NCBI GenBank assembly: GCA_018398765.1
Contig: JAHBMJ010000411.1
Location: 1-48,601, forward strand
Length of the DNA: 48,601 nt
Reading direction: 5' to 3'
DNA from: Chromera velia
Lineage: Eukaryota
The notes beneath the pieces are model-generated. The model did not search any database. It was not told where the DNA came from and worked only from the letters and a program-made list of their open reading frames with translations. Both the position numbers and the translations under genes were made by a program. Below are positions 12,996 to 46,720 of this stretch, piece by piece. Each line of letters begins with the position of its first letter. Within the stretch, counting starts at the first letter, position 1.

Positions 12996-13546
12996 ATGGC
13001 ACCTAAGGTTCAGAAGTCGAAGGAGCAGAAGGCCGCTGCGGCCGCCGCCGGTGGTCGCTCCAGAAAGAAGGTCGGTTGGAGCACCTGTGACCTTTCCTTA
13101 CTTCTTAGATACATCTCTCCATGAGCATTTATTGGTGCCTTTCCCTGCCTCTTTGTGACTGCAGAAGTGGAGCAAGGGCAAGGTCCGCGAGAAGCTGAAC
13201 AACGCTGTGGGTATGACCAAGCAGGCCTACGAGCGCGGACTTGCGGACATCCCCAAGGCAAAGCTCATCACCCCCGCCGTTGTCTCTGACAGGTAACTTG
13301 AACAGCGAGACTACTCTCTTTCCTCTCCTCTCTTTCCTCATTGGGGTCTCTGTCTGTGTGCTCGGAGCCACCTCTCAACACTCTTTCCTTCTGCCTGTTG
13401 ACGCGTGCTTGCTTGCCTGCAGGCTTAAGGTGAACGGCAGCATTGCCCGTCAGTTCATCAAGCACCTGGAGGTTGAAGGTCACATCCGCAGGGTGGGCGA
13501 CCAGAACCACCACCAGATGATCTACACCCGTGCCACCAACCAGTAA
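12996..13546 (+). CDS. RPS25: 40S ribosomal protein S25 (eS25), 108 aa, 3 exons
   Basis: Exons 12996-13070, 13165-13292, 13423-13546 give [40 protein letters not shown]...[73 protein letters not shown] and IYTRA are eS25 hallmarks, and the GT-AG introns are phase-consistent. Confidence 0.97.
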
Positions 13547-21887: not shown

Positions 21888-22004
21888 NNNNNNNNNNNNN
21901 NNNNNNNNNNNNNNNNNNNNNNNNNNNNNNNNNNNNNNNNNNNNNNNNNNNNNNNNNNNNNNNNNNNNNNNNNNNNNNNNNNNNNNNNNNNNNNNNNNNN
22001 NNNN
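21888..22004. other. Assembly gap (N run) inside a (CT)n microsatellite
   Basis: 117 N characters flanked by (CT)n. Confidence 0.99.
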
Positions 22005-26212: not shown

Positions 26213-26948
26213 CTCAGCATGTATCGTGAAGATGCGTGCATAGCGTAGCTGCGCAGCTGCCACTGAGTCGCATACATCTTTCATTGACGCTTACATAATT
26301 TGTGCTCTTTAATCAGCTTCTAGATTAGCTTTCACTGATTGCATTTCATTTTCATACTATTCTCATTATTATTTTCAAAGTTTACTTTAAATAAGAAGAA
26401 ACTTTGAACTTAAAGCTGATCTCATTATGCTGATATCTTATCTTATAATAAAACCATGACTTCTAGTAAAGCTTGAAGTTTTTAAATACGTTCAACAGTT
26501 TAAACCTCTGTTGGCGCAAAGTATTTCATACTGCAATATCATATATAACTATAAATTTATAAAAAAATGCTTTAAAACTGATACTAACTACTAGTAAGCT
26601 AGCTATAGAATCAATAAAAATTTAGCATTGAAATTTGCAATTTGTTATAATTTGTTGTTAAAGTTTTTGCTACAGTAGTTGTTACATTTCTATCCCGAAT
26701 GAAATGTCAACTCTCCCATTAAATGTGTATTCCTACATATTTGTATAAACAGATCATATTCTTAATGCCCGATATGCTAGCCTCTACGTTAGCCTGCATA
26801 TTCTATCATATCCTAACCTAGATCTAGATCCCTAACTCAATTCAATTTCTTTACATTCTTCAAGGTAGCAGGATATGCCAGTGAGTTTAACTTATACGTA
26901 TGATGAGTAACAGGAGAAAAGCCAGCTTGTATATTTATACCTCGGGCA

Positions 26949-27097
26949 CTATCCTCTTGGGCTTTTCCCTTGAGCATTACGGTTTGAAGGTTGGCCGCCA
27001 TGAAAGGCTCCTTGGCGGTCTAACCCGGGTCGAGGCATCACGCACCCGGCCAGACTTTGATCGAGAGGAACCTCCACCCCTGCATTCATGTACACAG

Positions 27098-27145
<48 letters not shown>

Positions 27146-27770
27146 CGAGAGAGAGACAGTCAAGGAGACAGCAAAAGAGTGTAGAGGATTGGGGTTAAAG
27201 AAAAGAGAATTTGGAGCAGACTGCCTGGATAAGAGGACAGAGATAGTCAGACGCAGTCAAACTGCACAGGCAGCCAAAGGGTTGCAAAGGAAACGACGTG
27301 CCTGTCCTAGACAGATAGGATAGATAGCTGGTCAGACAGATTACTTCTTGAACAGACAAACAGATGGAGGAATATGCAAGGAAGTCTTGATGCACAACTT
27401 TCATGTGCATGCACAGAAGAAGAAAGAAGTGACGCGAGCACACACGAACCAGTGAGGTCTCCTTGAAGTTATCTTGCGATAATCATTTTCATACAGAATT
27501 TTTGTAAAAAAAAAAAAGTACACACCACAGACGTACCAGTGAGGTCTCCTTGAAGTTGTCTTGCGATTATCAGACGCCACACAGTCGCACCGGCGGCTCT
27601 CAAAATGTTCCTGCGAGCAACACGTGCGCGCGTGCATGCATGGAGGGCATGAGTGAAAGAAAGGAAGGAAGGAAGGAAGGAAGGAAGAACAAAACAAACA
27701 AAGAAAGAAAGAAAGAAAGAAAGACACAAACAAACAAACAATGAATGAAGGAAACAAAGAAGGAAGAAAG

Positions 27771-27808
<38 letters not shown>

Positions 27809-30800
27809 AAGAAAGAAAGAAAGAAAGAAACAAACAAACAGAGAATGAAGGAAACAAAGAAGGAAGAAAGGAAGGAAGGAAAGAAAGAAAGAAAGCAAGG
27901 AAGGGACAAACAAACAATCAAACAAACAAACAAACAAGCAAGCAAGCAAGCAAACAAACAAACAAGCAAGCAAGCAAACAAACAAACAAACAAACAAACA
28001 CACGAAGAAAACAAGAAAAGGTGCGTCTTGAATTCACGTGCTTCTGTCTCTCTGTGTGTTCCTATTTCGATTCGAAGGACCCATCGATGCAGACAAATTA
28101 GGGGGACTGCTGGATCGATTGGTCCACTCTTGCTTCACTCAACAGAGAGAGCTTTAGAGAAGCTCCTCCCAAAATCCCCAAGCAGGCAAGCAGACAGGTG
28201 AATTGACGTCACGGTGGAGAAAAGAAACCTATTATTTTATTCCTATTCTCTCTCTCTAATACTTCACATGCTTGGACACCTAGGCGCAAGTGGAAGGAAG
28301 GCAGAAAGTCTGGAGGAGATGAGTGGAGGAGTTTTTCATTCCCTCAAGAACAAAAGGTTTCGGTGTAAGGGCCTCGCGCATAGAAGCATTGCGACCGAGT
28401 TTGTTCGTACGGAGAAAAAATTTACAGAAAACACAAATTGGGCGGTCATGATGAATATGCAAAACACGAAAAGAAAGGGGAGATAAAAAACAGACCGACC
28501 GAAAAAGTTCAATTTCCTCAATGCTGAAAGGACGACATGAGAGGAAGATGAGGTCTGCTCCCTTCTCATCTACCTCATCCTGGTACGTTTCTTTTTTCCT
28601 GTCTCCCCGGAGGGCAGCCCTTCTCTCCTTCTCACTCAAGAGACTCAGCATGTCGGCACGAGAGACGTCCTTCTCATGCACCTCTCTGCAGGCATGCATT
28701 GATTTTCATGCATTTATTTTCATACAGAATCCAGGGAAAATAAAAAGAATTGTATATGAAAATAAAAACACGTCCTTCTCATGCACCTCTCTGCAGGCAA
28801 AATTGAGGGAGGAATGGAGCAGAGATTGCGCATCCTGTCTGGTGGTGCATTTCGCCATTTGGCCCATACATACCATTCCTTCTGGGATTTGTTTCTCTGA
28901 AGGGACTGGATGGCTTGCCTGCCTGCCTGCCTGATGCCGGGCATCGCACAAAGAAGTATGGACCAGTCATCTTCTAACTGTCTACCTGCGTCTATTTACA
29001 GCAATTGTCTGTCTCCAGCGAGTTTTCGTTTTCAGCACTTCATGAGCGCACGAAGAGGAAAACGACAAAGGACCCTTCGACATGTAAAGCAAGCCTGGCC
29101 TCCTATGGCAGACCTTCCACACTTTGCGTCTCTCTGAGTGCCGTCTCCAATTTTGTTGATCAGCTGCACTGTCCCTACAAGCCGCACTGCAGAGACGCCG
29201 TCCCCGAGACGGCGAATCCCGGCAGCCTCTCCGGCACGCCGACGGTCGGGCATCAGACGCGCCTGCAGGGAGACCCGCACACACAGAGACAGGGATGCCA
29301 TTTGAGTCATAAGGACGAGAATAGAAAGAGGCACACACACACACGCATACACACACGCACGTACGTGCGTACACGCATATGCCAGAATCAATTTTCTTAC
29401 GTGGAGCCAAAAGCGGCTTTCCGAAACGGAAACTATGTTCCCAAGACCCCAAACAGACAGCAGGTATCCGGCTTGCCTACTCACTGACTGACTCACTACG
29501 AATTCACTCATTCACTTTCTCACTTACTGACCCTGGCTCACACACCCGATTCTTCGAACAACACACCTACCTACGTACCTGAGTCATGAATGTGTTGTTT
29601 CCCCCGGCCCCCTTCTTCCCTCCCCCCTCATCTCCCAGAGTCCAATTGCCATGATCCTCTGGATTCTCAAACGCCAACGGCCCCAACAGCATGTTTCCGT
29701 TCAGCTGCCCTTTAGCCTTCCCCTTCCTCTCTACACCGTCCACCAGAGGATTCAAAAAGTGCTCCTCTGTCAAGTCAGGCACATACAGGACGCACATACG
29801 GTCCACACATTGTCCCACAAGGCCTGCGTTCAGAGGAAGACGCATGGCTCTCAGTCGCTCCCCCGTGTATTTTTTCTTTTCCTTGAACCTCATGCCGGTC
29901 TGCTTCGTCTCCCCAGCCTCCTTCTGGGCAGGAGAGAGAAGAAGGGAACCGTCAGAGGCGTCAAAAAACAAAATTCGCACAGTCTCAACCTGCACAAAAC
30001 AGGGATCAGAAACACAGCGCAGAGCACGTTTGTGTTTATCACCGTCCTTCCCTCTTTCTCTCCATTTTGCGTACGCATTTCATCTTTCTCATCCCAAAGA
30101 CTTTATGTGTCCATGACTCCACGCACAAGTCGATGTGCATACACATCGCCACCCGGGTTTCACCGACTGTTCCCATCAGGACCAACCACCCTCATCATAT
30201 TCCTCGAATGAGAGACACCTTCTGTTACCAGCAGTACAGAAACAGGACAGCCTCCATAAATGGACAAGTAAAAACACTGTGCACAAACACAAAGCACTGC
30301 GTTGCGTTGAAAGTACACCAGGTGCCCAGTGTCTTGGAAGAAACCTAAAAGCGTACCTGGAAGAATTCCTTCAGTTGCGCCTGTAGCATCTGCTCCAATT
30401 CAGGGAACCCCCTGCATTGGTACAGAGTCGCACAAATCTCCAGACAAGAGAACACCCGGTATTGCATCATCAGAGCACCACGATGGGCCTGCATCCGAGC
30501 CATCACAGCGCCAGCACAGTTGCAGAGAGTCTGCAGGACCTTCGAGTCGATCACAGTGAAGTTCTGCAGACAGGAGGGGAGAAGACACACGGAAGGAAGG
30601 GAGACGCAGTTACATAGCTAGGGGATGCACACGCACAAACAGAACTGGATACACGTGCAGCTTTGCAGAGAGAGCCATTGGATTCCATGATCGAAGGATC
30701 GACAGATCGAGGGATTTAGCTGGAATGACGAAAAAAGGAGCCAGAAAAGAGACACAGGAGAAAAAGTTGGAAGGGGGTCCTGAGCAGCCGGAATCCTGGT

Positions 30801-31573
30801 AACAATGAGCCGAGAAGATATGCAAAAGAAGGGTTACAGATGGGTTCTGCTCTACTCAGTCACAAAGAAAGAACAAAAACCGGAGGCCAAAGAAGCAATT
30901 AAGCCTGCAGGGGGGGAGGGATCGAGAAGGAAGACTGACCCTATACTCTGTCGGATCTCCCGTCTTTTTTTCTCTTTCTGTAGGAAGGAAGGAAGGAAGG
31001 AAGGAAGGAAGATACGCAGACAGAGAAAAGCAGGATGTTAAACGGATTGGCGCAAAGGGCCGCGTCCCTGTTTACTGCAATGCAGACAGTCTTTGCTTTT
31101 TGATTCACTGCAAAAACAACCTGAGAGGTATCCCGCAGATGAAAACGGTCATACGGGAGCACTTTACAGTTTCTTTCAGTCCGTCTCTTTATTTCTCTCC
31201 TGGCTGCATCTGTTGGCTCCTTTTTGTTTCTCTCGTCAAGCCTGGTTGCGCAATTAAGGAAGGTGCTCCTGTCCGAGAGTTTCCGTCGCCACTGACTGAC
31301 TGAGTGACTGACTGACTGGCTGGCTGGCTGACTGACTGACTGACTGAGTGAGTGAGTGAGTGAGTGAGTGACTGACTGACTGACTCAGTGACTGACTGAC
31401 TGACTGTGGACTTGAATCACTGCCAAGACTTTCGAGTTGCCCATGTTTGTGCACACGGCTGAGGCCAGGCAGCGCATCTGGCAGAGAGGAAGACTCCTTG
31501 GCCCTAGGCCCTTGAACACCGGAGTCAACTCTCCAGCCAGTGCAGTCTTTCTCTCTTGGGGAGGCCGGAATAC

Positions 31574-31612
<39 letters not shown>

Positions 31613-33150
31613 TACACGTTCGCGCATGCATTTGTCCTGCTTAGCACACGAAGAAGAAGAAAAAGAACGGAAGCGTTCCCGAGGGTCAACCGAAGTTTCA
31701 GTATCCCTTCCTCGCCCCCATCCCCCCAGAAAATGAAAACAGAGCAATTCCACTCCCCCGTCTCTTCCCTCCAACCCCACCACATGATTCCATCACTGTA
31801 TCTCTATCTGCATGACACCGACCCTCCAACCCCACCACATATTTTCATTACTCTACCTCTATCTGCATGACACCGACCAACCGACCAACCGACTGACCCA
31901 AACCTGGTGAAGGCCGTCCAGGTGGAATTTCGTTGGCTCGGACAGGGATGTTCTCCTCTCGACAACGTTCTTTAGCTCGGACTTCAGGAAAGGGTCCACA
32001 ATGAATGCCACAGGACGGACAGCGTGAGGGAGGGCCTGCTTGATCGTTGCGAGAAGCTCGACCATCGTGTCGTGCTGAGACCGTTTGCGCATCGCCGCGA
32101 CGCCGCACGAGACCATCCGGTGGAGCATCTGCTCCGATTGGACCTGCATGTACAAGGATGGACGGGCGGCCGGGGGCATTCATTCATTTGTGTGTGGAAG
32201 GAATGGGACAGGAGAGGGGGGCCATTCATCGATTTGTGTGTGGAAGGAATGGGACACGAGGGGAAAGGGTAAGCAGAAAGTTAGGGACTGAAGATGATGA
32301 AGCGTGCAACACTCTAGGAAGAAATGGAAGTTCTAACATGCGTCGATCGACAAAAAATTGGACCCCCATTACGTCGTATACACTCGCTGCACGTTGAAAG
32401 AAGGAGACCAAAGATAGATGAAAACGTCCTTGACAGACTGAAGGAAGACCAATCAAATCAATGCACGGACAGACTATATGGTTTCTTTCCCTTTGGACAG
32501 ACAGACAAACAGACAGACAAACAGACAGACAGACTATATGCTTCTTCTTCTTCTTCTCCCTCAGACAGACAGACAGACAGACAGACAGACTATATCATCT
32601 TCTCTTCACTTCACTTTTTCCGAACCGCTTCCTTTCTTTCGGACAGACAGACAGACAGACAGACTATATCGTCTTTTCTTCACTTCACTTTTTCCGAATC
32701 GCTTCCTTTCTTTCGGACAGACAGGCAGGCAGACAGACAGACAGACAGACAGACACACAAACAAGCAGACACAGACAGACAGACACACGGACGACAGACA
32801 GACTATATGTTTCTTCTTCTCCCTTCTTTTCTTCATGGACACAATAGACAAAAGAAGGAAAGCAACAAAGACAAAGGAACATCACGACAACTCAGACAAA
32901 GTGGGCAGGGGGCCCGAAAGGTGAGAGTTAAGCGCCCCTTGCCTCTCCACCTCCCGACAGACTTTCACGTGATCACTGGTTTCACACGCTACTCCTCTGC
33001 TGCTTCCACTCAAGACAAGAAAGAAGAAAAGAAAACAAGGCAAAAAAAACCAACAAAAATTAAAAATGACAACAAAACAGACAGACAGACAGACAGACAG
33101 ACAGACGGACAGACAGACGGACAGACAGACAGACACACGGACAGACAGGC

Positions 33151-33182
<32 letters not shown>

Positions 33183-33235
33183 TATATGTTTCTTCTTCTT
33201 CTCCCTCCTTTTCTTCATGACAGACAGACAGACAG

Positions 33236-33266
<31 letters not shown>

Positions 33267-33329
33267 GACAGACAGACAGACACACAGACGGACAGACAGA
33301 CAGACAGACGCACACACAGACAGACACAA

Positions 33330-33369
<40 letters not shown>

Positions 33370-35418
33370 GGACAGACCTCCGTGATCATCTGATCCCTCC
33401 GTGCCTGTCTCGCGATCTCTTCTCCCTCCACCCCTGCTGTGTGATCTCCTATCTTCGTACTCTCGTTCCATTTGTTCTTTCGGGGCTGGTGCACTGCGGT
33501 CTTCGGGGGCCGACAGGGGGTGCCTCCGGTTGGCGATTTGGAAGCCCGGGGGGATAACGCTGTGGAGACTGGGGGTAGGGGTAAGGGGGTTCGTTTGGGT
33601 GGATCTGTAGTGGGAAGCTGGAGAGAGTGGCTTTGGGGGGGAGGTTCTGTCTTCCGCCTCTCTTGCGGTGGTTGTGTTGCAGCTGTAAAGGAGAGACGTG
33701 CGTTCTTCTTCTTTTTGTCGTCCTCGGGATCATCGTCTATTTGCATCAGGGCTTGGGTTGGAAGATCGAAGGTCATCATACTCGTCGCTTGTTCTGTTGT
33801 GTCAATCAACCTCTCCCCTCCCTCTTCTTGCTCGTCTTGATCACTTACGTCTCCTTCCTCAATCTTCTCCTCCTCACCTTTGTTTGTGTGTGCATCTGCT
33901 GCAATTGCACCTCGCGGAGGGGCCTGTGGATCGTTACCCTCTTTGTGTTCGCCTGCGTTCTTTTTGGCTGCTGTCTGCTCATTTTCAGAAGAAGAGGAAG
34001 ACGATTCTCGCATTGACCCCAAAATCTTTAGATTCCTCTGTATGCCCTCAAGCCGTCGCTTTTCTGCTTCTGCTTTTCGGTCCGTTTCCTTCCACACCTT
34101 TTCATTCAACGTCCCCTTGTCCCCCTCTTCCTCCGACGCCCGTCTCCCTGCAAGCACCCGCTTCATCCCGTCAAACCCCGCCGCCGCCACCTGCGTCCCT
34201 TTGTTGAAAGGGCAGAAGGCTGCAGGGTCGTCTGGACCCAACGCGCGTCTGTCTGCATCCACTCCCACAGGTTCATGTGTCGAATCAAACATCCCCAAAG
34301 AAACCTGCACGCTACCCCTCCGATTCTCATATTTTACACCCCCCCCAAGGTCCACTCCCTTCTCTGTCTCTTTCTCCCGCTCGGATCGGGACGAGGCACT
34401 CGCCCTTGAGCGAGGAGACCCCGAAAGAGAGTGCCTGCTGCCTTTCTCCTTTCGTCTTCTGCCTCGCCGCTTCCTCCTGCCCCCCCCCCCTCCTCCTCCA
34501 CGCTCCGACTCGCTCACTCCCGACAATCCCAGAGAAGTTCTGGAGGCACTCAGGGATGAGGCCGTCATCAACTCAAGAGCACGGCCGTCCTGCATGCATG
34601 GAGGAATTAACGGAGGGAACACACACATACTTACACATGATTTTGAGGGGGCCGAACAAACAAGGAAAGAACGATGGAAGCATAGCGAAGGATATGGTCA
34701 AGACGAAAAAGAAAGAACGAAGAGCGAAACCAACGAGTGAAGAACATGGACGAAATTGGACAAGCAATCAGATCCACATGAGGGACCCAATACCTGTCTG
34801 TTGTGTCGCTACAGTTGCATGGCCAAGACAAAAAAACATCTCTTTTCGCTGTCCCATTTCACATATGTTCTTTCCGCTTCTCCAAAAGGAAAACTATTGA
34901 AACTGATTGCTTACTCACCGCCCACACAATTTGTGCCCGGTGTTTCTCCCCTTCTCTCCCACGTTCCCGCTTGCCCCCTCCGGAAATGACCTTCCCCCTG
35001 TCCACATCTTGCAACGGCTCTGCATGTATCAGGCATTGATTCATTGCAACAAAAGTTCATACGGGGGGAGCCACGGCAAAGTGGGAAATGATCAAGAAGG
35101 GAGGGCACGTCAGCCGGAGAGTCTGGTACACATTTTTCATCTTCGCACAACGCATTGTGACTGAAGGACGGATACACGTATTAGAGGATGATTCACTTTG
35201 TCTTTCTTCCTGGCAAGTATGAATCCAGAGAAGTTGGAACACTGGCAGGCGCATACAATGCAACGGAACCGCTAATGTTGATGTTGAATTTGTGTGCACT
35301 TGTTCAACACTTTTTTTCTCAGTTTTACAAAAAAGGGCATAAAAAGGGTCAAAGAACTCCTGAATGCAGAGGCCCTTCCTGTCAGAAGACCCGCACATGC
35401 ACAAGAAATGATTTTCGA

Positions 35419-35462
<44 letters not shown>

Positions 35463-36117
35463 CGGGCCTTCAAGGAAAAAGGCCCCCTCGTCCCTTCCTT
35501 TCCGAGGAGACTGAGCAGACGCCTCTGTCTTCTCAATCGCCATCGACGCCTCTCGAGGGCTTCCGTCTCCTTGTCGTTGTCGGTACCTCTCCCCTTCACT
35601 GAGACATACGCAGGCGGAGATGGAAGGAAGGTTAGACAAACAGGAGAAAGGATGCGAAAGAGGATGGGCAGGGAGGGCTCTGTTGAGTGTGAAGTGACAG
35701 AACAGAGATGCCAACACCTGAAGTGGCACTGTTGTGTGGTTGGTTTTTTTTTCTGCCTCTCGTTCTGCGGCTCTACCCTCTTTTCATCTATCGATTTTTG
35801 TATTTGAATGAATGTCCCGAGTACACCGTCTCGAGCTTCAACAGCCTCCTTCGTTCAAAATGAGCCCCTCTATTCTACCTGCAACACAACACGCTCCTCC
35901 TCTGCCAGGCGAATGAACACTTTTGTCTTCTTCAGTCTCCTCTTGCCAACAAATTCAGGAGACAGACAAAGAGGGTGCATGCTGCCACCATCATGCAGGC
36001 TGACCCACCTAGAGTCCGAACTAGAGGAGGAGGAGGAAGAAGCGCCCAAGTCCCCCTCCCCCCGCACTGCTCTGAGACGTCCCTCCCTTCCTCTCGCGGC
36101 CCCAGGAACGCCTCCTG

Positions 36118-36161
<44 letters not shown>

Positions 36162-37680
36162 TGTGGGTGCGTGGATGCTCATGTTTACACACGACAGAGA
36201 GACCGCATGCAAATCCAGGCTCCTGGTCTTGTTGTCTATCGCTTTCTGCCTGACTCATGGACTAAGGGGGGATGGCACTGGCTCGCAGGTTCATTGAATG
36301 ATGGATGCAAGCACGTGAGGGAGGCTTGACTGACAGACCCGCAGAGAGTTGACGAATCATTTAATGAAAAGAGAAGTACAAATAAACAAGGGAAGGCTGA
36401 CCTCCTCTCTTCTGGACTCTGGCCTTTAGCTCGGCGTTTTCCCTCTGGGCCCTTCTGAGGCGCCTCCGAAAGTCGGCTGCTTCCTGAAAGAGCACAAAGA
36501 GACAGAAAAAAAGGATGCAAACGAGCAAAATTTGAAGGGAGGCGGGAAAAAAGGACGTCCAGAAGGAAGGAAAGAAGGAAGAATTGAAGGGAAGACGGGT
36601 GACCAGACCAACGAATGATTACGAGAGCACAGCGCCTTACTCAGCTAACCTTTTTGTTTTGTTTGGCCTCTTTGACGAGGTCACGTGCCCACATGCATTT
36701 ACTTTCTATATGCTCTGAAAAAGAATTCTGTATGAAAGTAAATGCATGCTCAGCTGACCTTTTTGTTTTGTTTGGCCTCTTTGACGAGGTCCCGTGCCCA
36801 CAAGTTTCGAATTCGTTCTGAGGTGAACACAGAGGGAACCTCAACAGTTTCCGTTTCCCCTTCCCGCCCCTCGGTCGTTCCCCATTTCCCCCCCCCTTCT
36901 CTCGTCCTTTTCGCTTCTTCTTCTTGTGCAGTCTCCCGCGCGGTTCCCGACGAGAGGGGGACCAGCCGGCTGCCTGCCTCCCGTCTGCCTTCTCCAATGC
37001 TTCTGCTGTCCAACTGTTGTTTTAGCCTCTCGATCCTGCAGGGAGGCAGGCAGGCAATCACAATTGATCATTCAGTCATCAGTGCATAGCCAAACAACGT
37101 GTTGTTCTGATCTGGACGCATCCACAGCCCTGCACATCGAATATACACGAATGCGGCCACAGGATGCAAACGCAGTGTAGTATCTACGGTAAACTGGAAC
37201 TTGCTGGCCACATTGTTGCCAACGAACAGACAGACAGACAGACAGACAGACTGACTGACTGACTGACTCTTCCTGCTGCTGTGTGACAACAGATCGAAAA
37301 TTCTGTACGACCGAATTGGTTGTTTCGAGACGTTGGCGGATGTTTTGGAATTCCGAGGCAAAGATCATCTGAGAGTGTTCTCCTTGTTGTGTCTGTCTGT
37401 GCGAGGAGAGAGCAGTCCCTTCATCAGACTCAAGACCAGAGGAAGGGGGGAAGGGGTTCTGGAAGTGGTGTTGTTGGTGTTGCCTCAAGGAAGTTGAAAT
37501 TGGTTGTCGCTTTACCCTCTGCGTGGCGGGAGCGGTAGACAGACTCTTCCTGGCGTGCACAGTGTCTGCACGTCCTGCTGCTGCAGGTGTGGATAGGGTT
37601 TGTTCGGCTGCTGTGATGAACTCTTCGTGCCTTCGCCATAGGGAGCTCGGCTTCGTCTTGGGTCTCTGTTGCATGAACAT
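26949..37680 (-). CDS. Multi-exon protein with N-terminal coiled-coil/low-complexity region and tandem GAF domains
   Basis: Probable start MFMQQRP at 37680. Exon peptides: ...[51 protein letters not shown] (GAF-1); 29989-29579 [10 protein letters not shown]...[34 protein letters not shown]...[43 protein letters not shown] (GAF-2, NK...F..E motif). The last exon 27079-26949 reads [14 protein letters not shown]...*. Several internal exon boundaries are uncertain. Confidence 0.7.
27444..27572. mobile_element. Short insert family copy C with 42-bp flanking direct duplication
   Basis: Repeats 27444-27485 and 27531-27572; insert TTTTCATACAGAATTTTTGT(A)12GTACACACCACAG. Confidence 0.7.
28665..28799. 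mobile_element. Short insert family copy B with perfect 30-bp flanking direct duplication
   Basis: ACGTCCTTCTCATGCACCTCTCTGCAGGCA at 28665-28694 and 28770-28799; the insert contains CATGCATTTATTTTCATACAGAAT...TATGAAAATAAA. Confidence 0.75.
36640..36802. mobile_element. Short insert family copy A with 54-bp flanking direct duplication
   Basis: Repeats 36640-36693 and 36749-36802 (2 mismatches). The insert has a perfect 15-bp inverted repeat CATGCATTTACTTTC / GAAAGTAAATGCATG around AAGAATTCTGTAT. Confidence 0.8.
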
Positions 37681-37954
37681 CGTTCCAAAAGTTTGACTAG
37701 TGTTGTTTGCTGGGATGCATTGTTTGCCTTCGCGCAGTGTGGATGTTTCCCTGTCTTTTCTGAAGCAAGGACACAACTTTTGTCAGACAGTCAGAGGAAC
37801 GCTCAAACATGCTGGCAGGAAGGCTGATCTTCTCTGCTTGAAGCTTCAAAGAAGTACATCGATCATTGAAGTGCTGTCAAGGTGGGCAGGTCCGGGTCAA
37901 GCGAACCATGAATGTGCGTTTAGCGCGCCCAACGCATCGCCCGCCCGCGCGGGG

Positions 37955-38045
37955 TGCATGCATGTTGGCCCACGCGGACCGCGGGCCCGGCCATGATTTG
38001 TGTGCACTACAGCCAGCCAGGAGTCAGACAGAACACAAATTAAGG
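37955..38045. promoter_or_regulatory. Putative bidirectional promoter between the GAF gene and ESS2
   Basis: GC-rich island with TGCATGCATG (37955), CGCGGACC (37973), GGGCCCGGCC (37983) and AATTAAGG (38038), the same words in the same order as upstream of RPS25. Confidence 0.5.
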
Positions 38046-38384
38046 AAGCATTGCCGCAAAATTGCCGGTTTGTTTGCCTGATGACAACCTCGGTCTCTGT
38101 CCTGTTCTCTCATGTATCAACTGAGTCTCCGTTCTGCCCCAGAGGTCTTTTCGGGTCGATTTGGAATTGGAAACGGATTGATCTACTGTGCTTTGTTGGG
38201 TGGAACTGATTCTTCTTCTTTAACTCATTCTTGTGAGTCAACTGGCTCTTCAGGTTGCTCTCCTTCCCTGAGTGCCCTTCCCTTGGGCACAAGAGACAGG
38301 AGAGGATCTTGCTCTGGTTCTTGAGTCGCTGGAGAAGCTGCAAAGTATCTCCTTTCCAGTGTCTCTGGTTCAGGAAAAAAGAAG

Positions 38385-40538
38385 ATGGAGGACATACCCG
38401 GCTCCCCTGTTCCACCTGTTGCTGTTGCGGCTGCTGCAGCAGCTGCTGCTGCTCCTGATTCTGCGACCGGAGTAGCGGCAGCAGATGTGTCTTCGGCCCC
38501 CTCTGCTCTGGCCCTGAACAAGAGAGGTGAGGGTGAGGTGGTGTTGAGGACAGCAGAAGAGAAACACGTTCTTGTTGTGAAGGAAAGGAGAGCCCAAGAG
38601 CTCCAACTCGCAGTAGCAGTCCCCGACCCCTATCCAAGAACGCGGGCCCCTCCCCGTGTGATGTACGAAGAGGACTATGTGGGGATGCTGGATGAGATCA
38701 TAGAAAGAGACTACTTCCCCGACCTGCCCAGATTGAGGGCCTTCAATGACTTTGCCGAAGCCTCCAGAAAGAAAGACACAGCCAAAATGCTGGAGGCACA
38801 GGCGCGTCTGCTCATTGCGTCCACGCCAGCGGGTACCGAGAAGGGCACCCCGGCCCGGTCTGCGTCTTCTGCAGTACAGGGGCAGGGGGAGGTGTCGGAT
38901 GCAGGTGGGGAGTCGCGTGTTTTGGCTGTTCCAGGCACGTCTGGGTCTCGGGTCACATTGGTAGATGGACGTGAAGTGAGTGTGAAGAAGAGTATGCGGT
39001 TGGATGATTTCCAGCGAGTGTACACTAGTGAGGACAACGCATCGTTCGAAACGATCATGGAGAAGGAGATGGAGGTCAGGAGGGCAACAGAGGGATGGAT
39101 TGAGGATAAGCAGAAAGAACACAACCTGAGAAGGCAATTGAATTTGCATGCGATTGAGGACGGTAAGCCTGCCGATTCTCTTTTGTACACCAAACACACA
39201 GCAAGAAACAATCTAATGTTCCCTGGAAGAGCGTTGGAAGATCAGCAGACGGGGGACACCAAGCAGACCGCATTGGCTGTTCCAGCCAAGGCCGAAAACA
39301 AACAGATCGCCTTCCGAAATACCCGATTCACGACAGCCCAGCAAGATTCAGACGAGCAAGAACAGAGACAGAAAGCAAGTCTCGCCGCCAAGCAGGCAGA
39401 GGCAGACGATGAATCCTTCCACCGCCGTTTCCTTCAGACTGGGGAGCTCCCTCCTTCCGCTAGCCAGACGGGGGGTGGGGGGGGTCTGCAAGATCCCGAA
39501 GACCTCCAGCTTCCCCTGGGTAGGGGGGGGTTTGCGTATGTAGGCACACCCTCATTGAACCCCGATTCCATTGGGGCTTCCCCTCTGATGACTTGGGGGC
39601 AGGTGGCCTCTACGCCGCTTCTGTTGGGTCCGAAGGGTGAGGGGCCGTCTTTTGAGTTGAGGGATCCCTCGAACAAGGAGACGTTAGCTTTGAGACTAGC
39701 AGAGAGCGCAGGGAAGAAAATTCGAGATAAAAAGAGAAAAATGACAGATGAGCTGCGGTCAGTTCTGAATCCTGGCAGCATTATTCGGCAGGGGACAGGG
39801 GGGCAGACGGCGCGGGTGCAGGGGGGGAGTGGGAGAAGGGAGCGTCCGGGCACGTCTTTGATCTTGAGGGGGAGATTCGGGACGAATGAGACCCTGTCGA
39901 TTGATCGTCGGTTGGCCGACCTAGCTGCCAAGAACCCTGCGTGTGCCCAGATCCTGAATTCCATGGCCAGCAAGGGTAGGCTTCAGGGTTTGGGGGGGGA
40001 CGCTCAGCTGCGTCAGAGTTATTCTGGGAGGAGCAGGAGGGGGTCGGATGTGCGGTCCGTCATGTCGGTGGAGGGGGGCAGCCGTGGTAGTAGCAGTATG
40101 AGTATGCAGGGGAGGTCTCAGAGGGGGGGAGGCTCAAAGCGCCCCCACCCCAATGGAAGTGAGTTGCCTGCTGCAGCGGCTGCGGCAGCTGCAGGAGGGG
40201 GGGAGGGTAGTGGGAAAAGACCCCGTCACGGTGTTGCGGCACCGTCTCAACAGACAGAGAAAGATGGGAGGGCTGGAGGTGCCTCCGCTTCCTCCTCTGC
40301 CCGTGTTGGCGTGCCTGCTTCCTCCTCTTCCTCTTCAGTGTCAGCCGACGCTGCCTTTGCTGCCCTCGGCTTCGTGTCAGATGCCAGAGGGATGACACCT
40401 GCAGGGCGGGATGGGGAGACGAGCAAGAGGGGTGAGACTCAGGCAGAGAGGGAGAGAGCGTCGGGGGTGAAGGGGGGAAAGGCCGGCGAAGGAAAGGACA
40501 GCGGACTCACTGACGATCTGCTGCTGTTTGGTAATTAA
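38385..40538 (+). CDS. ESS2: Splicing factor ESS2/DGCR14 (ES2 domain), 717 aa, single coding exon
   Basis: Family motifs EEDYVGMLDEIIERDYFPDL, LDDFQRVYTSEDNASFETIM, ARNNLMF, GFAYVGTPS, SPLMTWGQVASTPL, and C-terminal LTDDLL. Confidence 0.92.
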   Translation: MEDIPGSPVPPVAVAAAAAAAAAPDSATGVAAADVSSAPSALALNKRGEGEVVLRTAEEKHVLVVKERRAQELQLAVAVPDPYPRTRAPPRVMYEEDYVGMLDEIIERDYFPDLPRLRAFNDFAEASRKKDTAKMLEAQARLLIASTPAGTEKGTPARSASSAVQGQGEVSDAGGESRVLAVPGTSGSRVTLVDGREVSVKKSMRLDDFQRVYTSEDNASFETIMEKEMEVRRATEGWIEDKQKEHNLRRQLNLHAIEDGKPADSLLYTKHTARNNLMFPGRALEDQQTGDTKQTALAVPAKAENKQIAFRNTRFTTAQQDSDEQEQRQKASLAAKQAEADDESFHRRFLQTGELPPSASQTGGGGGLQDPEDLQLPLGRGGFAYVGTPSLNPDSIGASPLMTWGQVASTPLLLGPKGEGPSFELRDPSNKETLALRLAESAGKKIRDKKRKMTDELRSVLNPGSIIRQGTGGQTARVQGGSGRRERPGTSLILRGRFGTNETLSIDRRLADLAAKNPACAQILNSMASKGRLQGLGGDAQLRQSYSGRSRRGSDVRSVMSVEGGSRGSSSMSMQGRSQRGGGSKRPHPNGSELPAAAAAAAAGGGEGSGKRPRHGVAAPSQQTEKDGRAGGASASSSARVGVPASSSSSSVSADAAFAALGFVSDARGMTPAGRDGETSKRGETQAERERASGVKGGKAGEGKDSGLTDDLLLFGN

Positions 40539-43296
40539 GAAGTAAGGGTGAACACACGCACCTACGCACGCACACGCATGATCTGAAAATAAGGGGGTAG
40601 AGCGAACGACCCTTCATCACTGCACACGCACACGTTCTGCCAATCGCTGTGCTCTGGTACAAATAAGTTTATTTATTTATTCCCCTGTCAGATGGCCTGT
40701 TGCTCTTCCCTTCCTTGTTTGGTTGAGTGCCTGCCTGCCTGGCTGCACGTCATTGACCGGAGGGATCGGTGCGGTCCGTCCGTTCTCGTCATCCCCTTAA
40801 TTTCCTTTAATTCCATTGTGTGCCGTCTTTCTCGATCGAGCGACCTCCGAATCTGTCTCTGCCTCTCTTGTCACTCGATTTGTGTTGGAAGCAGAAGAGA
40901 GGGGCAAAACCAAAGTAGCTCTTGAGATCCCTCACAACTCCCTCTGGGTGGAGGGGTGGGTGCATGGGTCGTGTACCGCCAGGGCGTATAAGGTGTTTCC
41001 TTGCATGCATCTATAGGCATGCATAATTGATCGATGCATACATATTCATACTGAAGAGCGAGATAAAGAACCAAACAAAAGATGTATGCGGACATAGTAT
41101 CTGTGACGTGGGTTTCAAGTTGTTTTCACTAGTAGTTTTCATTTTTATGATATCATCATCATCATCATCATTCACCATCGCTATCGGCCCATAAATGAGC
41201 GTCTAGCGTTCGGCTGGTTCGATACGCAGCTGGACATACTGTTAGGGCAGTCCTCGATCTCCTACAAAGGAAGATAATACAGGCAAGAACGGCTTTCCCG
41301 TGATGGCCACTCACTGAATTCCCGTGGCAAGGCAGAGTGGTTTTACATCGTCACACGATAGAGCAACTAATATAGAGTAAATCAAGGATCAACAGACGAT
41401 TTGAATTTTTTAATCAGTTTAGACTTGTATGCTAGTTGAATTATGCTAAGAATTATGCCACTATATAGCTAGTTTCTTAGCTGGTTTCTTTTTAGGTCCT
41501 ACACTCTAAAGTTCTAAAGAAAAAAAGAAAGAAAGTTCATTTGGGTTTTGCTTCTGGTTTTGCTTGTTTCTAGCTTTACTTGAGAAAGACTATCAATCAG
41601 GTCCCCTCTTTCATTTAAATCGAAAGACTAGGTTGCTTACCAAACGTTTTATAAGCTTAATCGCAGGTTTTATGATGCTTTCTCCACCTAGCTCCTTAGT
41701 ATTCATCTCCTACTCGCCCCTCCCTTTTGTGTCCCTGACCATTGAAAGTAACACGACAAGCCCAAAACAAACAGAAGAAAGACATCTCACGTTACTTACC
41801 CTCGATCGAATTCCTTTCTCGAGAGGAGAGAAGATGTTCAACCTTCTCGGTATGTGTACTAGTGTCTGCAAGTGGGTAAGGGATTTTCCTGTGTTACGGT
41901 CTACTTAGACCACAACTTAAGTCTTTGATTGTTCTAAGACGTTTTGCTGTCTGTGTCCTTTGGCAAACATCAGGAGAATTACAATGGATGAAATGTGAGC
42001 AGGTGGCAGACTGAGAAGCGAAAGGTCCCGGGTTTGATTCTCATCTCCATCTCTTTTACCTTTTACGAGAAGCTGATTTTGGCCCCGCACGCGAAACCGA
42101 TCCCGCGTAGCGAGCCACAACCGAGACTGCGCAGTACAGTAACACCACAAGAATCAGAAATTAGCCGATTATGAAAGAAGAAAAATGCAGAGCCGAATAG
42201 TTCGAGTCGCATCCAAATTCAGTGGAGGACGATCGACCTCTCCAACTCTTAGTCATGATGAGTCATCACCTTCAATAAACTCGGATCGACTCAACCTCTT
42301 TGAGATCTCATCCAAACCTTCCTGCAGATACAAAGATACAAACATTCACACTGCAAACAGGAAACATAGTAGAGATGCCTAAACATACAGAAGGAATCCA
42401 GACAAGAGTTCGAGCAGAGAAGGCCCCCGGACACAGGCCTTGGGCGAGCCCCTTGGTCGCCGTCTGGGCTAGCTGGAGCCTTTGGCTGCGTGGCCCCCAC
42501 CCTCACGTGATCTCCTTAAAAGACAGACGTGCGCTAGAGCCCTCTAAGACTTCAGACTCAGCCTTCTAGAGTGGCAAACAAACCTGATAGAATGACTGAC
42601 CTTCATATATCTATACAACCTTCTAGCTCTCACCTCTTTGGAGTTAGATGGTGCCTGCGTCCTCTCTCATAGCGTGAGAGTAGGTCGTAACACCTGGTTG
42701 CAGTGGAACTGTTACCTCATCATCTGCTTGGACAGATCTAATTCCTTGTAGGTCAGATCTATGCTTTCCTTCTTACCTGTCCGTAAACTTGAGGAGACAC
42801 GCTTCCATCCGTGCAAGTGAAAGAAAAATAAATATGTGCTTTAGATAGAATGAGGCCATGCACACATATCCCTTGTGTCTTCCTGAGAACTTAGAGATCG
42901 GTGCCTTGCATCTAGGTATGCATAGCTGTCCTCAATATGATGAAGGTGCGTGATTCATCTCAGAGAGATCGGTGGATTGGCTTCCCCTGTGTAGCTGAGA
43001 GCATGATCGCACAGGCGCTGTATCGTCCTTTCTTCTTTTCTTCTTCATGTAAGCGAGAGAGTCTGGTATCAAAAAGCAGTGTTTCGCGGGATATCTTTTG
43101 TTTTCCTTGCAGTGCACTCCATGCATGGCAGGAATGCGTAGCACTGCATAGTGACTGTACCCGATCTCGCATACCTGGACTGACTGGTTGCAGCGCGATG
43201 CCGAAAGCGCCTGTTTTGCCTGTGCCGATGAATAGGGGTGCTAAGATAACGTGAATGGACTGAGATCTTTGAGGGAAAAGAAACGACTATACAAAT

Positions 43297-43392
43297 TGTG
43301 AGCCTTGTCCGCGTCCCGCAAGCCTTGCGCTTGGGTGCGCTGCGAAGAGGTGTGGCGGCGGCAAGCATGGCGGGACGCGCGCAAGGCTCACA
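43297..43392. repeat. GC-rich long inverted repeat (hairpin/MITE-like)
   Basis: TGTGAGCCTTGTCCGCGTCCCGC (43297-43319) pairs with GCGGGACGCGCGCAAGGCTCACA (43370-43392) at 21/23. Weaker pairing (GACTAT/ATAGTC) extends outward. Confidence 0.75.
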
Positions 43393-43927
43393 TAAATAGT
43401 CATGACATGCTTCTGTTCTTTGGAAGGGATGGATGTCTTTCCAGTGTGTGCTTTATTAAAGTATAAGAGGAACAAGCCAGTAGATCGATCTCTATTTAAC
43501 CAGCCACTTCTTAGAAGATAAAAAAATTCTATCGAGTGCTGGCCGAAACTTTCCAAAACTGGCCCCGAAAGTACAACAAACTCTAGCAATACTGACAAAC
43601 TGCTAAACCAGTAAACTACCATATAGTAGCTGTTAAAACTCCATTGCATAGTTTTTAAATTTAATTAGTTTACTCCTACTAGATCTGCTACCAATTTTAA
43701 CCAATATTTGTATAATTTCTAGTACAGTTTCTACTAGTAGTATGATTTTAATACTTATAAAATTAGAAAAAAATTCTAATCGGATAAAGACTTCTTTTTG
43801 CGTAAAAAAAAGAAAAGTTAGTATAGCAATATCAGTCGTTGAAGTTCTCAATGAATAGCTGAGAGAACTGACCACAATAATATTTATAATTTATGCAAAT
43901 TCTTGCTATTTCAAACTTGTTTTTTTA

Positions 43928-46720
43928 TTATGTGGCTAAGCCTGGAGTCTTCTCGGCTCTTTCTATCAACCGTTTTGCCTCTTTGATCTGGTCCGCAACG
44001 CTGAGACTACCCGAATCTACATCCTTGGGATTGTATAAACATGCTGCCACACATCTGCACATACGTTCATTTTCAAACAGAATTCTTTTTGTGTACGAAA
44101 GTAAATGGGAGTGTACAAACATGCTGCCGCACATCTGCACATAAAAATGAAAAGTGAAAGAAATATTTTTTTTTGGCTCCCTCCACACGGCATGAACTTG
44201 GCTCTCAGCATCGAATATTGGAATTGAGCGAAAGCCAAAGAGAGATTACAAGAACCAGGCCTCTGACGTTGACTGAGCAGTCTCTTTCGTCTCTCATTTG
44301 AAGAGTCAAACAATCATTCAACAGAACAAAACACGAATCAGGAATATGTATGTGAAAAAATCATTCTTCATCGCTTTGTCGCCGCCCACAAAGATAAATG
44401 GATGAAAGACGTGCCCTAGGATCAGGTGACCTGATTTCACCTCTAAGTAACTTTTCCGATTGTCTGGTTCGCGATCTAAGCAAATAGGACGCGAATCTGG
44501 GGGGTTTTCTGCTGTTCTCAATAAGACTACAGCCGTCGACTCTTCAATCTCATTTGATTGACTGACCCAGAATGATCGTAGAAAGGGGTTTTCATGTGCT
44601 TGTAGTCAACAAACGACAAATCATACGATGCAGCGCTGGTCGACACCATCATATTGTCGGCGTTCATGGCCATCTCCCACCAATCCTTCGACTCCCTTCC
44701 GTCTCCTGCAAACAGGAGAAGAGAGAAGAAAGAAGGGAAAATTGTCCTGCTCCTTCGACAAAGGATTGCGCATTCATGCGAAAACTCGGAAAGGAAGGCG
44801 GAAGAATGGATCGATCGATCAATCATCTCAGTAAAACACGAAGTTGTCTGTCTCACTCTCCATTTCCCCTCAGCCCAAAACGCCCACCTGTAGCCTGTGC
44901 ATCACACTCTATGATCAGTTTGTGTGTGATCAGCAGGTTGGCCTTCTGGAAAGGTGTGCTAGGGGAAAGGTCGTGGGTCTCTGTGAGGAGTTTGGCCCCG
45001 GGTTGGAGAGGCAGGCCGAAACATTTGGTCAGGCACTGGTGGACCTCATGTCTGTTTCTTTTCAGCTGCACGCAGGGAGGGAGGGAGGGAGGGAGGGAGA
45101 GAAGTTGAAGGAAGTTCGACTGAAAAAATAATTACCTGGGAGATCGATGGAAGGTCTCTCTGATTTGTTTTCTCAAGGGACACTAGACAGCGATTTTCGG
45201 AAAAAGAAATAAGAAAGGAAGCTCTTGCATTTCGGCTTTGTACACCGATCGAAGAAGCGAATCGATCAGCGGATAAAAGCAGACCTCATTCTTCAAAGAG
45301 ACTTCCTGGCAGAAGGAGGGAAGTTGCGCGACAGTTGTGGGATAAAGACCCCCATGATTGGAAGGAAATGGGATGGGTGAGAACGCTTCTTCCTTCTTTT
45401 CACGGACTGTCTGAGTGACTGAGTGTCTGACCTTTCTGCACACTGAAACTTTGGGAGAGAGGGAAAGAGCAGCCCCAAGAACATCCCCCCCTCTGGTCTC
45501 TGCCTCGGCTCTCGCCTTGATGCTTGCAGCCGGGGAGTCTTCTCCGCTTTTTCGTTTCCTGCCGACATATTTGCTCTTCTTTTTTGAGGGTGTAGAGAAT
45601 TGTCGGACGGCAAGCTTGAGAGCCGTGCGCATAACATCTCTTGGAGGATACTCGTGAAAACACCTGATGGGGAGGAATGAAGCGTGTGTATACGCATGCA
45701 GCGGGTTCTCCATCTATGATTCTGTGTGAAAAAAAAGAGAAGTGGAAACGGAAGAAGTCAAGCTGCTGTCTGGTGCACGAATCTGGACTGACGTCATTTC
45801 GGTTTTCCTTGTTTTCAGCCTATTTTCTCTTCGGGTCTTCTCTGCTTCTCACAGACAAGCTAGGAGGTTGTGTTGTGTCATGCTTCATGGAATGGAAAAG
45901 GAGCAAAAGACAGGCACTGTCTGACAAAACTTGCATGCAGCAAAACAGTGGCACCAGACAGACAGACAGAACGAATTCACTCACTGTGCGAGAAAGGAGA
46001 AGGATGAAGGAACGCGAATGCATGTCACGCCCATCTGCTCACTCATGCATGTGCTCATTCGTTCACTCACCGGGCGAAGGGAGCAGCAGCCTGATTCGGT
46101 TTTTTGTCATCTGCCGGGTTGGAGGCCCACCTGCAAGCACGTGCATGGACGAGCAGCAATTTTGATCCGATGGAATTGACACCCTCCCTCTAGCTCCTCT
46201 TATGCCTTCCTTACTTGCTTCCTTGACTCCTCGCTTGCTTGCTTCCTTCTTTTTCTCCTCTCTCTCCTTCTCCACTATGAATTGTTCTCATGTTTCATTA
46301 TTTTGGTCTGGGCAAACTCTCTTTTATTTCCACCGGAAAGAATTCCTTTCATTGATTCAATCTGGGGGAGAGCATCTTCATTAGTTATTGCCAATCAATC
46401 CGTTTGTCTAAATTCCATCTTGATGCATGTGCATCCAGGAGATTTGAAAATCTCTTCTCTTCTTGATGCATGTGCATCCAGGTGATTAGAATATCTCTTC
46501 TCTTCTTTTAATTCTCTCTTTCGGCTTACTGACGGACGTCTCGAGAGGCAGCTGGATCATTGGGGACTTTGAGTTCTCTCTCATCTCGTCGAATTCTGCC
46601 AGCTCCTTTGCCCAGACCCTTTCTTTCATGTGCACAAGCGTCTTCAGGAGGGCACGGGCAAGGAGGAAGTAAGTTGGGGAACTCTCAGTCAAATATCTGC
46701 ATGCAAGGGTTCACATACAC

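What the first reader, a model, noticed from the sequence alone, without database searches (positions are those of the whole stretch)
27444..44143. All four insert-associated duplications straddle an exon-intron junction
Seen on the minus (coding) strand. A duplicates 44 nt of exon plus donor (..KQNKK|GTCAGC; intronic copy GTTAGC). C duplicates 36 nt of exon plus donor (..QGDLT G|GTACGT; intronic copy GTTCGT). B duplicates acceptor plus exon start (TGCCTGCAG|AGAGGTGCATG.., identical copies). D duplicates acceptor plus exon start (TATGTGCAG|ATGTG..). In each case the insert and spare copy fall in the intron and the ORF stays intact, and both decoy donors are mutated at +3. Inference: either insertion targets splice junctions (spliceosome-, R-loop- or nucleosome-edge-coupled), or only junction-spanning events survive selection. 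Either way it creates competing splice sites and offers a route to intron sliding or introner-like intron gain. The junctions come from my manual gene models, and D's is the least certain.
Basis: partly seen in the sequence, partly recalled or inferred. Interest (0 to 1): 0.85.

Follow-up and report, generated by a model that had tools for sequence, protein, structure and literature searches.

The report
Short repeat that targets exon edges
In the alga Chromera velia, four copies of a short repeated DNA element each sit between two copies of a 30-54-base stretch spanning an exon-intron border (two borders seen in RNA, two inferred), always reaching only 9-11 bases into the intron, which suggests a mobile element that likely aims at exon edges and would therefore usually leave the gene readable.

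Summary
Observation confirmed. The window is Chromera velia DNA. Four related AT-rich inserts (40-75 nt) are each flanked by locus-specific direct repeats of 54, 30, 47 and 38 nt. All four repeats span a splice site. A and D positions are seen in RNA-type contigs. B is supported only by the public protein model. C, skipped by that model, is supported by homologues (34.9 vs 5.6 bits; 0 of 1000 shuffles). New here: the intron side of every repeat is 9-11 nt and the exon side 21-44 nt, for donors and acceptors alike. Survival of tolerated events alone gives about 3e-4 for 4 of 4 straddling, and about 1e-3 for the 9-11 clustering (post hoc). The family is roughly hundreds to low thousands of copies. 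It fails MITE and introner membership tests. Likeliest: a non-autonomous element inserted by long staggered nicks biased to exon edges. Limits: n = 4, three in one gene, no genome to test further copies, mobiliser unknown, decoy use and intron gain not shown.

The parts
36749..36802 (-). A: upstream repeat copy, 44 nt exon + 10 nt intron, holding the donor at 36759|36758
   Evidence: joint in X3 and X4; P0001
36694..36748 (.). A: 55-nt insert, imperfect palindrome, 29% GC; its 36715-36748 arm is high-copy in the genome
   Evidence: fold z -5.4, 0 of 200 shuffles; DNA depth 4964 vs about 26 in that bin; GC
36640..36693 (-). A: spare intronic repeat copy with weakened donor (T at +3)
   Evidence: its use would give a stop two codons after the first donor
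28770..28799 (-). B: upstream (spare) repeat copy; keeps the original pyrimidine-rich context and holds an internal AG|GT
   Evidence: its use gives an early stop
28695..28769 (.). B: 75-nt insert, two inverted arms plus a 12-nt extension, 24% GC
   Evidence: fold z -2.0, 6 of 200 shuffles
28665..28694 (-). B: downstream repeat copy, 9 nt intron + 21 nt exon, modelled acceptor at 28686|28685
   Evidence: P0001 maps through it; no RNA result
27537..27610 (-). 74-nt exon C of the GAF-like gene, missing from the public protein model
   Evidence: homologue tail profile 34.9 vs 5.6 bits, 0 of 1000 shuffles
27526..27572 (-). C: upstream repeat copy, 36 nt exon + 11 nt intron, inferred donor at 27537|27536
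27486..27525 (.). C: 40-nt insert, one arm plus an internal A12 run, 20% GC; no significant hairpin
   Evidence: (z 0.54)
27439..27485 (-). C: spare intronic repeat copy with weakened donor (T at +3)
   Evidence: its use gives an early stop
44106..44143 (-). D: upstream (spare) repeat copy with an intact AG
   Evidence: ambiguous 22-nt joint in X3; its use gives another C-terminus
44064..44105 (.). D: 42-nt insert, two shortened arms, 29% GC; no significant hairpin
   Evidence: (z 0.33)
44026..44063 (-). D: downstream repeat copy, 9 nt intron + 29 nt exon, acceptor at 44055|44054
   Evidence: joint 44054->44567 CT..AC in X4; open frame across it
26949..37680 (-). Host gene of A, B and C: 13-exon gene for a GAF-domain-labelled protein (P0001, UniRef label)
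43928..45065 (-). Host gene of D: last three exons of a gene of unknown family; its 5' part was not resolved
   Evidence: joints at 44054/44567 and 44704/44887; open frame; no relatives

Best explanation
Four members of one short AT-rich repeat family each lie between 30-54-nt direct repeats of local sequence that span a splice site (two seen in RNA, two inferred), and they are likely insertions of a non-autonomous element copied in by nick-primed synthesis, with staggered cuts that likely fall at exon edges. Steps. (1) Shown: the family is repeated in the genome and has a conserved unit of about 33 nt with a variable, often fold-back second part. (2) Inferred: the direct repeats are target-site duplications from two nicks 30-54 nt apart. 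(3) Inferred: one nick falls about 10 nt on the intron side of the splice site and the other 21-44 nt inside the exon, mirror-wise for donors and acceptors. That points to a positional cue at the exon edge (chromatin boundary or bound splicing machinery), not to a long sequence motif. (4) Inferred: the insert is made in place by a LINE- or Penelope-type enzyme acting in trans, which would explain the variable duplication length, ragged ends and 2-4 nt overlaps between insert ends and repeat ends. (5) Follows from the geometry: the copied splice site puts the insert and the spare copy in the intron, so the reading frame survives if the outer exon-side site is used; spare donors then decay.
For: Geometry 10, 11, 9, 9 nt intron vs 44, 36, 21, 29 nt exon. 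Chance about 3e-4 for 4 of 4 among tolerated sites and about 1e-3 for the clustering. Junctions. Only four strong copies in the window, none deep-intronic or intergenic; 0 of 4 insert-free local duplications straddle. Repeat divergence of 0-9% suggests separate events of different age. High copy: DNA depth 4964 vs about 26, with unrelated flanks beyond 36746-36750 in all 4 runs laid; rough ceiling about 1,600 close copies (the tool warns that depth is no copy number). Variable duplication length is a stated product of target-primed reverse transcription, and Penelope-like insertions often carry an inverted truncated copy (bioRxiv 10.1101/2021.04.23.441226, passages). C. velia has 5.2 Mb of LINEs (PMC4501334 supplement 2).
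Against: n = 4, three in one gene, in a window picked because the pattern was noticed; the 9-11 nt clustering is post hoc. Overlaps of 2-4 nt make the acceptor-side boundary uncertain (B 7-9, D 5-9 nt). No mobilising enzyme or source locus found. No terminal poly(A): the A12 in C is internal. The arms end in a CATG-type inverted repeat, which fits a DNA transposon as well. No empty-site allele was seen. For B and D the upstream acceptor keeps the original intron context, and nothing here shows which copy the insert-bearing allele uses. Flanks of other genomic copies were visible only as mixed 30-letter consensus rows and settle nothing.
Confidence: 0.5

Rival explanations
1. A non-autonomous DNA transposon (MITE-like) moved by a transposase with a long, variable stagger, as in IS481EU, IS1202 or IS1549/IS1634, inserting at exon edges as introner MITEs favour nucleosome linkers.
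For: A is a clean hairpin with both arms ending in CATG. Long duplications exist for DDE elements: about 4, 15 or 25 bp in IS481EU and 24-29 bp in IS1202 (PMC10045372, passages); 8-514 bp in IS1549/IS1634 (PMC2266710, passages). Linker bias is predicted for 104 of 132 introner genomes (PMC9860276, passages).
Against: C and D lack two intact arms and do not fold better than shuffles, and B has a degenerate end although its repeats are still 30 of 30 identical; a transposase needs both ends. Lengths of 30-54 nt exceed the eukaryotic record read here.
Confidence: 0.2
2. Host DNA repair: paired nicks at exon edges are filled by strand displacement to give a tandem duplication, and a fragment of an abundant short RNA or DNA is captured at the join by microhomology; the repeat does not move itself.
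For: Ragged ends, 2-4 nt overlaps and variable second halves. Insert-free tandem duplications of like size occur in the window (46418-46507).
Against: The same unit of about 33 nt recurs at 4 of 4 sites and at high copy number. No Rfam family explains it as an abundant RNA: only generic hairpin-type and other hits far below gathering score. Insert-free duplications here do not straddle junctions (0 of 4).
Confidence: 0.15
3. No targeting: insertion is random or only gene-biased, exonic hits are purged, and four junction-spanning survivors in one window are a chance cluster that drew the reader's eye.
For: Junction-spanning events are tolerated by geometry; the window was selected for this pattern; n is small. 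Earlier scan notes describe single cases of this kind for L1 and L2 elements (unchecked AI notes).
Against: About 3e-4 even at the junction density of the GAF gene, further about 1e-3 for the intron-side clustering. Introns and intergenic DNA make up 60.2 + 56.5 of 193.6 Mb (PMC4501334 supplement 1) and should hold most survivors, yet hold none in this window.
Confidence: 0.15

Closest known systems
Introners / introner elements (Micromonas, Aureococcus, Symbiodinium; Amoebophrya IEs) - PMC9860276, PMC12130899, PMC7789003, PMC11282704 (passages read)
   Same: Short non-coding repeat family with inverted arms, flanked by a duplication that holds a splice site.
   Different: Introners create an intron in exonic DNA, with duplications of 3-9 bp (3-5 nt in Amoebophrya). 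These inserts land at the edge of an existing intron, copy 30-54 nt and create no intron (0 of 4).
Penelope-like and LINE-driven insertions by target-primed reverse transcription - bioRxiv 10.1101/2021.04.23.441226 (passages read)
   Same: Variable-length duplication, truncated ends, inverted partial copies.
   Different: No reverse transcriptase, pseudo-LTR or terminal tail found; the bias reported for those Penelope-like clades is to microsatellites, not splice sites; the inserts are only 40-75 nt.
IS481EU, IS1202 (PMC10045372) and IS1549/IS1634 (PMC2266710) (passages read)
   Same: Unusually long or variable target duplications around elements with inverted ends.
   Different: Those encode or depend on a known DDE transposase and keep both ends; IS481EU reaches about 25 bp; no exon-edge bias appears in the passages read.
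MITEs in general
   Same: Small, AT-rich, high-copy, hairpin-forming (A, weakly B).
   Different: The duplication is long and variable rather than short and fixed; both arms are intact in only 1 of 4.
Intron gain or sliding by tandem duplication of a proto-splice site - PMC2891723 (abstract and outline read), PMC3265369 (search listing only)
   Same: A duplication copies a splice signal; B's repeat holds an AG|GT that could in principle bound an exact 105-nt intron.
   Different: Here an element sits between the copies and the copied site is an existing junction; the exact-intron reading of B needs a 4-nt exon and has no support.

Membership tests
Introner | The element is itself spliced out as a new intron, with splice sites at or next to its ends | tested here: not met
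   All four lie inside introns of 275, 428, 457 and 512 nt that would exist without them
Introner | Repeated family of similar sequences at unrelated loci | tested here: met
Introner | Duplication absent or 3-9 bp | tested here: not met
   30-54 nt against the range in PMC9860276
MITE | Terminal inverted repeats at both ends | tested here: inconclusive
   A yes (z -5.4), B partly (z -2.0), C and D no
MITE | Short target duplication of fixed length | tested here: not met
   54, 30, 47, 38 nt
MITE | Autonomous transposase element sharing the termini | not testable with these tools
   no genome held
TPRT retroposon (LINE- or Penelope-driven) | Variable-length target duplication | tested here: met
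TPRT retroposon (LINE- or Penelope-driven) | 3' poly(A) or simple-repeat tail next to the duplication | tested here: inconclusive
   an A12 run in C only, 8 nt inside the insert
TPRT retroposon (LINE- or Penelope-driven) | 3' end shared with a reverse-transcriptase-encoding partner | not testable with these tools
   no genome held
TPRT retroposon (LINE- or Penelope-driven) | Origin from a known small RNA, or a hammerhead motif | tested here: not met
   no Rfam hit near gathering score in 26500-45500 or in inserts A and B; an undescribed RNA is not excluded
Long-duplication DDE transposon (IS481EU, IS1202, IS1634 type) | Related DDE transposase in the genome | not testable with these tools
   no genome held
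Long-duplication DDE transposon (IS481EU, IS1202, IS1634 type) | TNT..AYA termini and duplications of about 4, 15 or 25 bp (IS481EU) | tested here: not met
   arms end in CATG; duplications 30-54 nt

The most novel reading that the evidence does not exclude
Chromera velia carries a high-copy mobile element whose integration machinery reads exon boundaries directly, nicking about 10 nt inside the intron at both donors and acceptors. Each insertion copies the splice site and hides in the intron: a splice-site-homing element, a safe-harbour strategy not found in the searches run here, and a standing source of duplicated splice sites.
Probability: 0.35. Interest if true: 0.85.

Novelty: new variant of a known kind. 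Interest (0 to 1): 0.62.

Why it matters
Targeted elements are known that home on tRNA genes, promoters, rDNA or nucleosome linkers (recalled, apart from the linker bias read in PMC9860276). One that lands a fixed distance from splice sites would show that exon borders are marked on DNA or chromatin precisely enough for an integration enzyme to use. With hundreds to thousands of copies it would give a natural genome-wide test of how a spliceosome chooses between two near-identical sites 80-110 nt apart, how spare sites decay, and whether splice-site duplication feeds intron sliding or gain. One script on the public C. velia assembly plus RNA-seq would decide it.

Tried and rejected
No whole genome is held, so no genome-wide count. 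No RNA result was obtained for B or C, and no further flanks of other copies. No run listed is on record as RNA; X3, X4 and X7 are guesses, though X3 and X4 carry GT-AG joints absent from the DNA run X1. Pattern scans: 0 hits in metagenome and viral contigs with the single-arm pattern; 8 metagenome and 5 prokaryote hits with the two-arm pattern, 0 of 13 with a flanking repeat above 10 nt, so unrelated. Loose-end rows are mostly mixed consensus; one single-contig flank in X7 has an acceptor-like TGCAG about 15 nt from the element end and the other has none, so they are not used as evidence. snRNA or other known-RNA origin: not found. Organelle origin: considered, not tested; the paper search gave nothing on point (listing only). 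Gene of D: no relatives; my first 5' exon model did not read through. The first C-exon test had an off-by-one coordinate and was redone. Earlier scan notes on this genome: none. Literature searches that found no description of this family or of splice-site-targeted long duplications: (listings). 'Chromera' has 0 occurrences in the main text of PMC9860276, PMC12130899, PMC10045372, PMC10288648 and the Penelope preprint; 'MITE' and 'palindrom' have 0 in the genome paper. The datasets of the two introner surveys and the preprint's supplements were not seen and could list this family or its duplication lengths.

Full report
Source and setting. An exon of the region matches a protein labelled as a Chromera velia CCMP2878 GAF-domain protein at 100% identity (P0001), and a second exon 7 kb away matches the same protein. 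A, B and C therefore lie in one 13-exon gene on the minus strand; D lies in a separate gene of unknown family. No whole genome is held for this window.

The observation. The inserts are 20-29% GC and share a core: the exact 13-mer occurs three times in 48.6 kb, always in an insert, and with one mismatch in D and at one acceptor-like site. A profile of the four inserts finds them at E 1e-13 to 2e-6 (by construction) and nothing else below E 0.18. A is a strong hairpin (z -5.4), B a weak one (z -2.0), C and D are not.

Are the junctions real? Contigs of one DNA-type and three RNA-type runs were laid on 36200-44950. X3 and X4 skip 36484-36758 with CT..AC ends, exactly the A intron. X4 skips 44055-44566, exactly the D intron to the downstream copy; X3 joins to the upstream copy with only 22 nt on that side. 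X7 shows none of these joints and the DNA run X1 shows none. X3 and X4 differ from the window by about 0.8%, so they are another strain and may lack the inserts: they fix the junction positions, not the choice between copies. The X3 joint could be use of the spare acceptor or simply that strain's own exon sequence. For B the only support is that P0001 splices there. For C the public model skips the exon and ends in another frame. A profile from the C-terminal tails of 47 of 56 unnamed homologues (those with the anchor motif, tails of 35 residues or fewer dropped) scores the model with exon C at 34.9 bits, the spare-donor model at 29.1 and the public model at 5.6; 0 of 1000 shuffles of the exon reach the real score, and the alignment continues in frame into the last exon. 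The C donor is therefore very likely real and the public model wrong there.

More than chance? Using the junction density of the GAF gene and counting only tolerated positions (intronic or junction-spanning), the per-copy chance of straddling is 0.10-0.17: 0.0026 for the three in that gene and about 3e-4 for all four. This is conservative for the window, much of which is intergenic. Four other local duplications without the insert span no modelled junction (filtered set). The sharper point, not in the first report: the intron side of the four repeats is 10, 11, 9 and 9 nt, the exon side 44, 36, 21 and 29 nt. Given straddling, a range of 2 nt or less has probability about 1e-3 whichever minimum is assumed. 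Selection can demand a minimum of copied intron but not a maximum. Against this: the test is post hoc, n is 4, the window was chosen for the pattern, and 2-4 nt overlaps between insert ends and repeat ends could shorten the acceptor-side values to 7 (B) and 5 (D).

What the insert is. In the DNA run the bin holding insert A has summed depth 4964 against about 26 for single-copy bins, and contigs leave the window sequence at 36746-36750 on one side and 36714-36716 on the other, into unrelated flanks. That defines a conserved unit of about 33 nt present at many loci; the crude ceiling is about 1,600 close copies, and overlap between contigs could make it several times fewer. The second half of each insert varies and is often an imperfect inverted copy of the unit. 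No Rfam family accounts for it, and no relative was found in viral, metagenome or prokaryote collections. The unit read one way resembles a local acceptor (pyrimidine run ending in CAG, next to a TGCATG-type motif common before acceptors in this gene), which may help the downstream copy of B and D to work; that is inference.

How it most likely works. Locus-specific direct repeats around a shared insert are best read as target duplications from two nicks 30-54 nt apart (inferred; no empty site seen). Their mirror-image placement at donors and acceptors points to a positional cue at the exon edge. Variable length, ragged ends and short overlaps favour nick-primed synthesis by a LINE- or Penelope-type enzyme in trans (0.5) over a long-stagger transposase (0.2) or host repair with capture (0.15); no targeting at all gets 0.15. 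Because the splice site is copied, the insert ends up intronic and the frame survives if the first donor or the second acceptor is used; use of a spare site gives an early stop for A, B and C and another C-terminus for D. How the cell avoids the upstream acceptor in B and D, which keeps the original intron context, is unexplained.

Comparison with known systems. Introners make new introns and have duplications of 3-9 bp (PMC9860276, passages; PMC11282704, passages; Amoebophrya 3-5 nt, PMC7789003, passages); this family fails both tests. Long duplications are known for IS481EU and IS1202 (PMC10045372, passages) and IS1549/IS1634 (PMC2266710, passages), variable ones for target-primed retroelements (bioRxiv 10.1101/2021.04.23.441226, passages) and Replitron-1 (PMC10288648, passages). 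The genome paper lists unclassified repeats and non-autonomous class II DNA but names no such family in the passages and two supplementary tables read (PMC4501334). Ten searches of the paper library gave no description of splice-site-positioned long duplications; the library is incomplete and the introner surveys' datasets were not seen.

Verdict. It is an insertion family with unusually long duplications and an apparent preference for exon edges: a new variant of a known kind on present evidence, potentially a new targeting mode if the 9-11 nt offset holds genome-wide. Decoy use, intron sliding and intron gain remain unshown.

Noticed in passing
window 27537-27610 (-): The public protein model P0001 skips this 74-nt exon and so loses the conserved C-terminal segment seen in its homologues.
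   Followed up: yes
window 27537-47807, modelled donors: Donors here are mostly GTC-type: +3 is C in 8, A in 4, G in 2 and T in 0 of 14 correctly placed donors.
   Followed up: partly
window 28665-28799 (-): B's repeat holds an AG|GT, so insert plus one repeat could be removed exactly as a 105-nt GT-AG intron, but only behind a 4-nt exon. No evidence for it.
   Followed up: partly
window 38325-40538 (+): Single long frame with Pfam Es2 (E 1e-52), covered by unspliced RNA-type contigs.
   Followed up: partly
window 24596-25948 (+): Frame with HATPase_c and a partial response-regulator match, a hybrid histidine kinase.
   Followed up: partly
window 41164-43200: A second, longer repeated region: DNA depth about 40-1100 against 25, almost no RNA-type cover beyond 41455; not classified.
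   Followed up: no
window 46418-46507: A 43-nt-period tandem duplication without insert that overlaps the stop codon of the minus-strand frame 46486-46710.
   Followed up: no
window 36711-36749: Contigs in X1 and X3 return from about 36744-36749 to about 36711-36716 with 2 or 22 other letters between (table 5c), hinting at family members with tandem or other fold-back arrangements of the unit.
   Followed up: no
window about 6850-7530 and 7770-8470: Two similar blocks about 900 nt apart, seen by eye; probably an internal exon-intron repeat of a minus-strand gene.
   Followed up: no
window 12997-13546 (+): Small gene with two introns that looks like a ribosomal protein S25 gene (name recalled, not tested).
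   Followed up: no
window 21889-22004: Assembly gap of 116 N inside a CT microsatellite.
   Followed up: no
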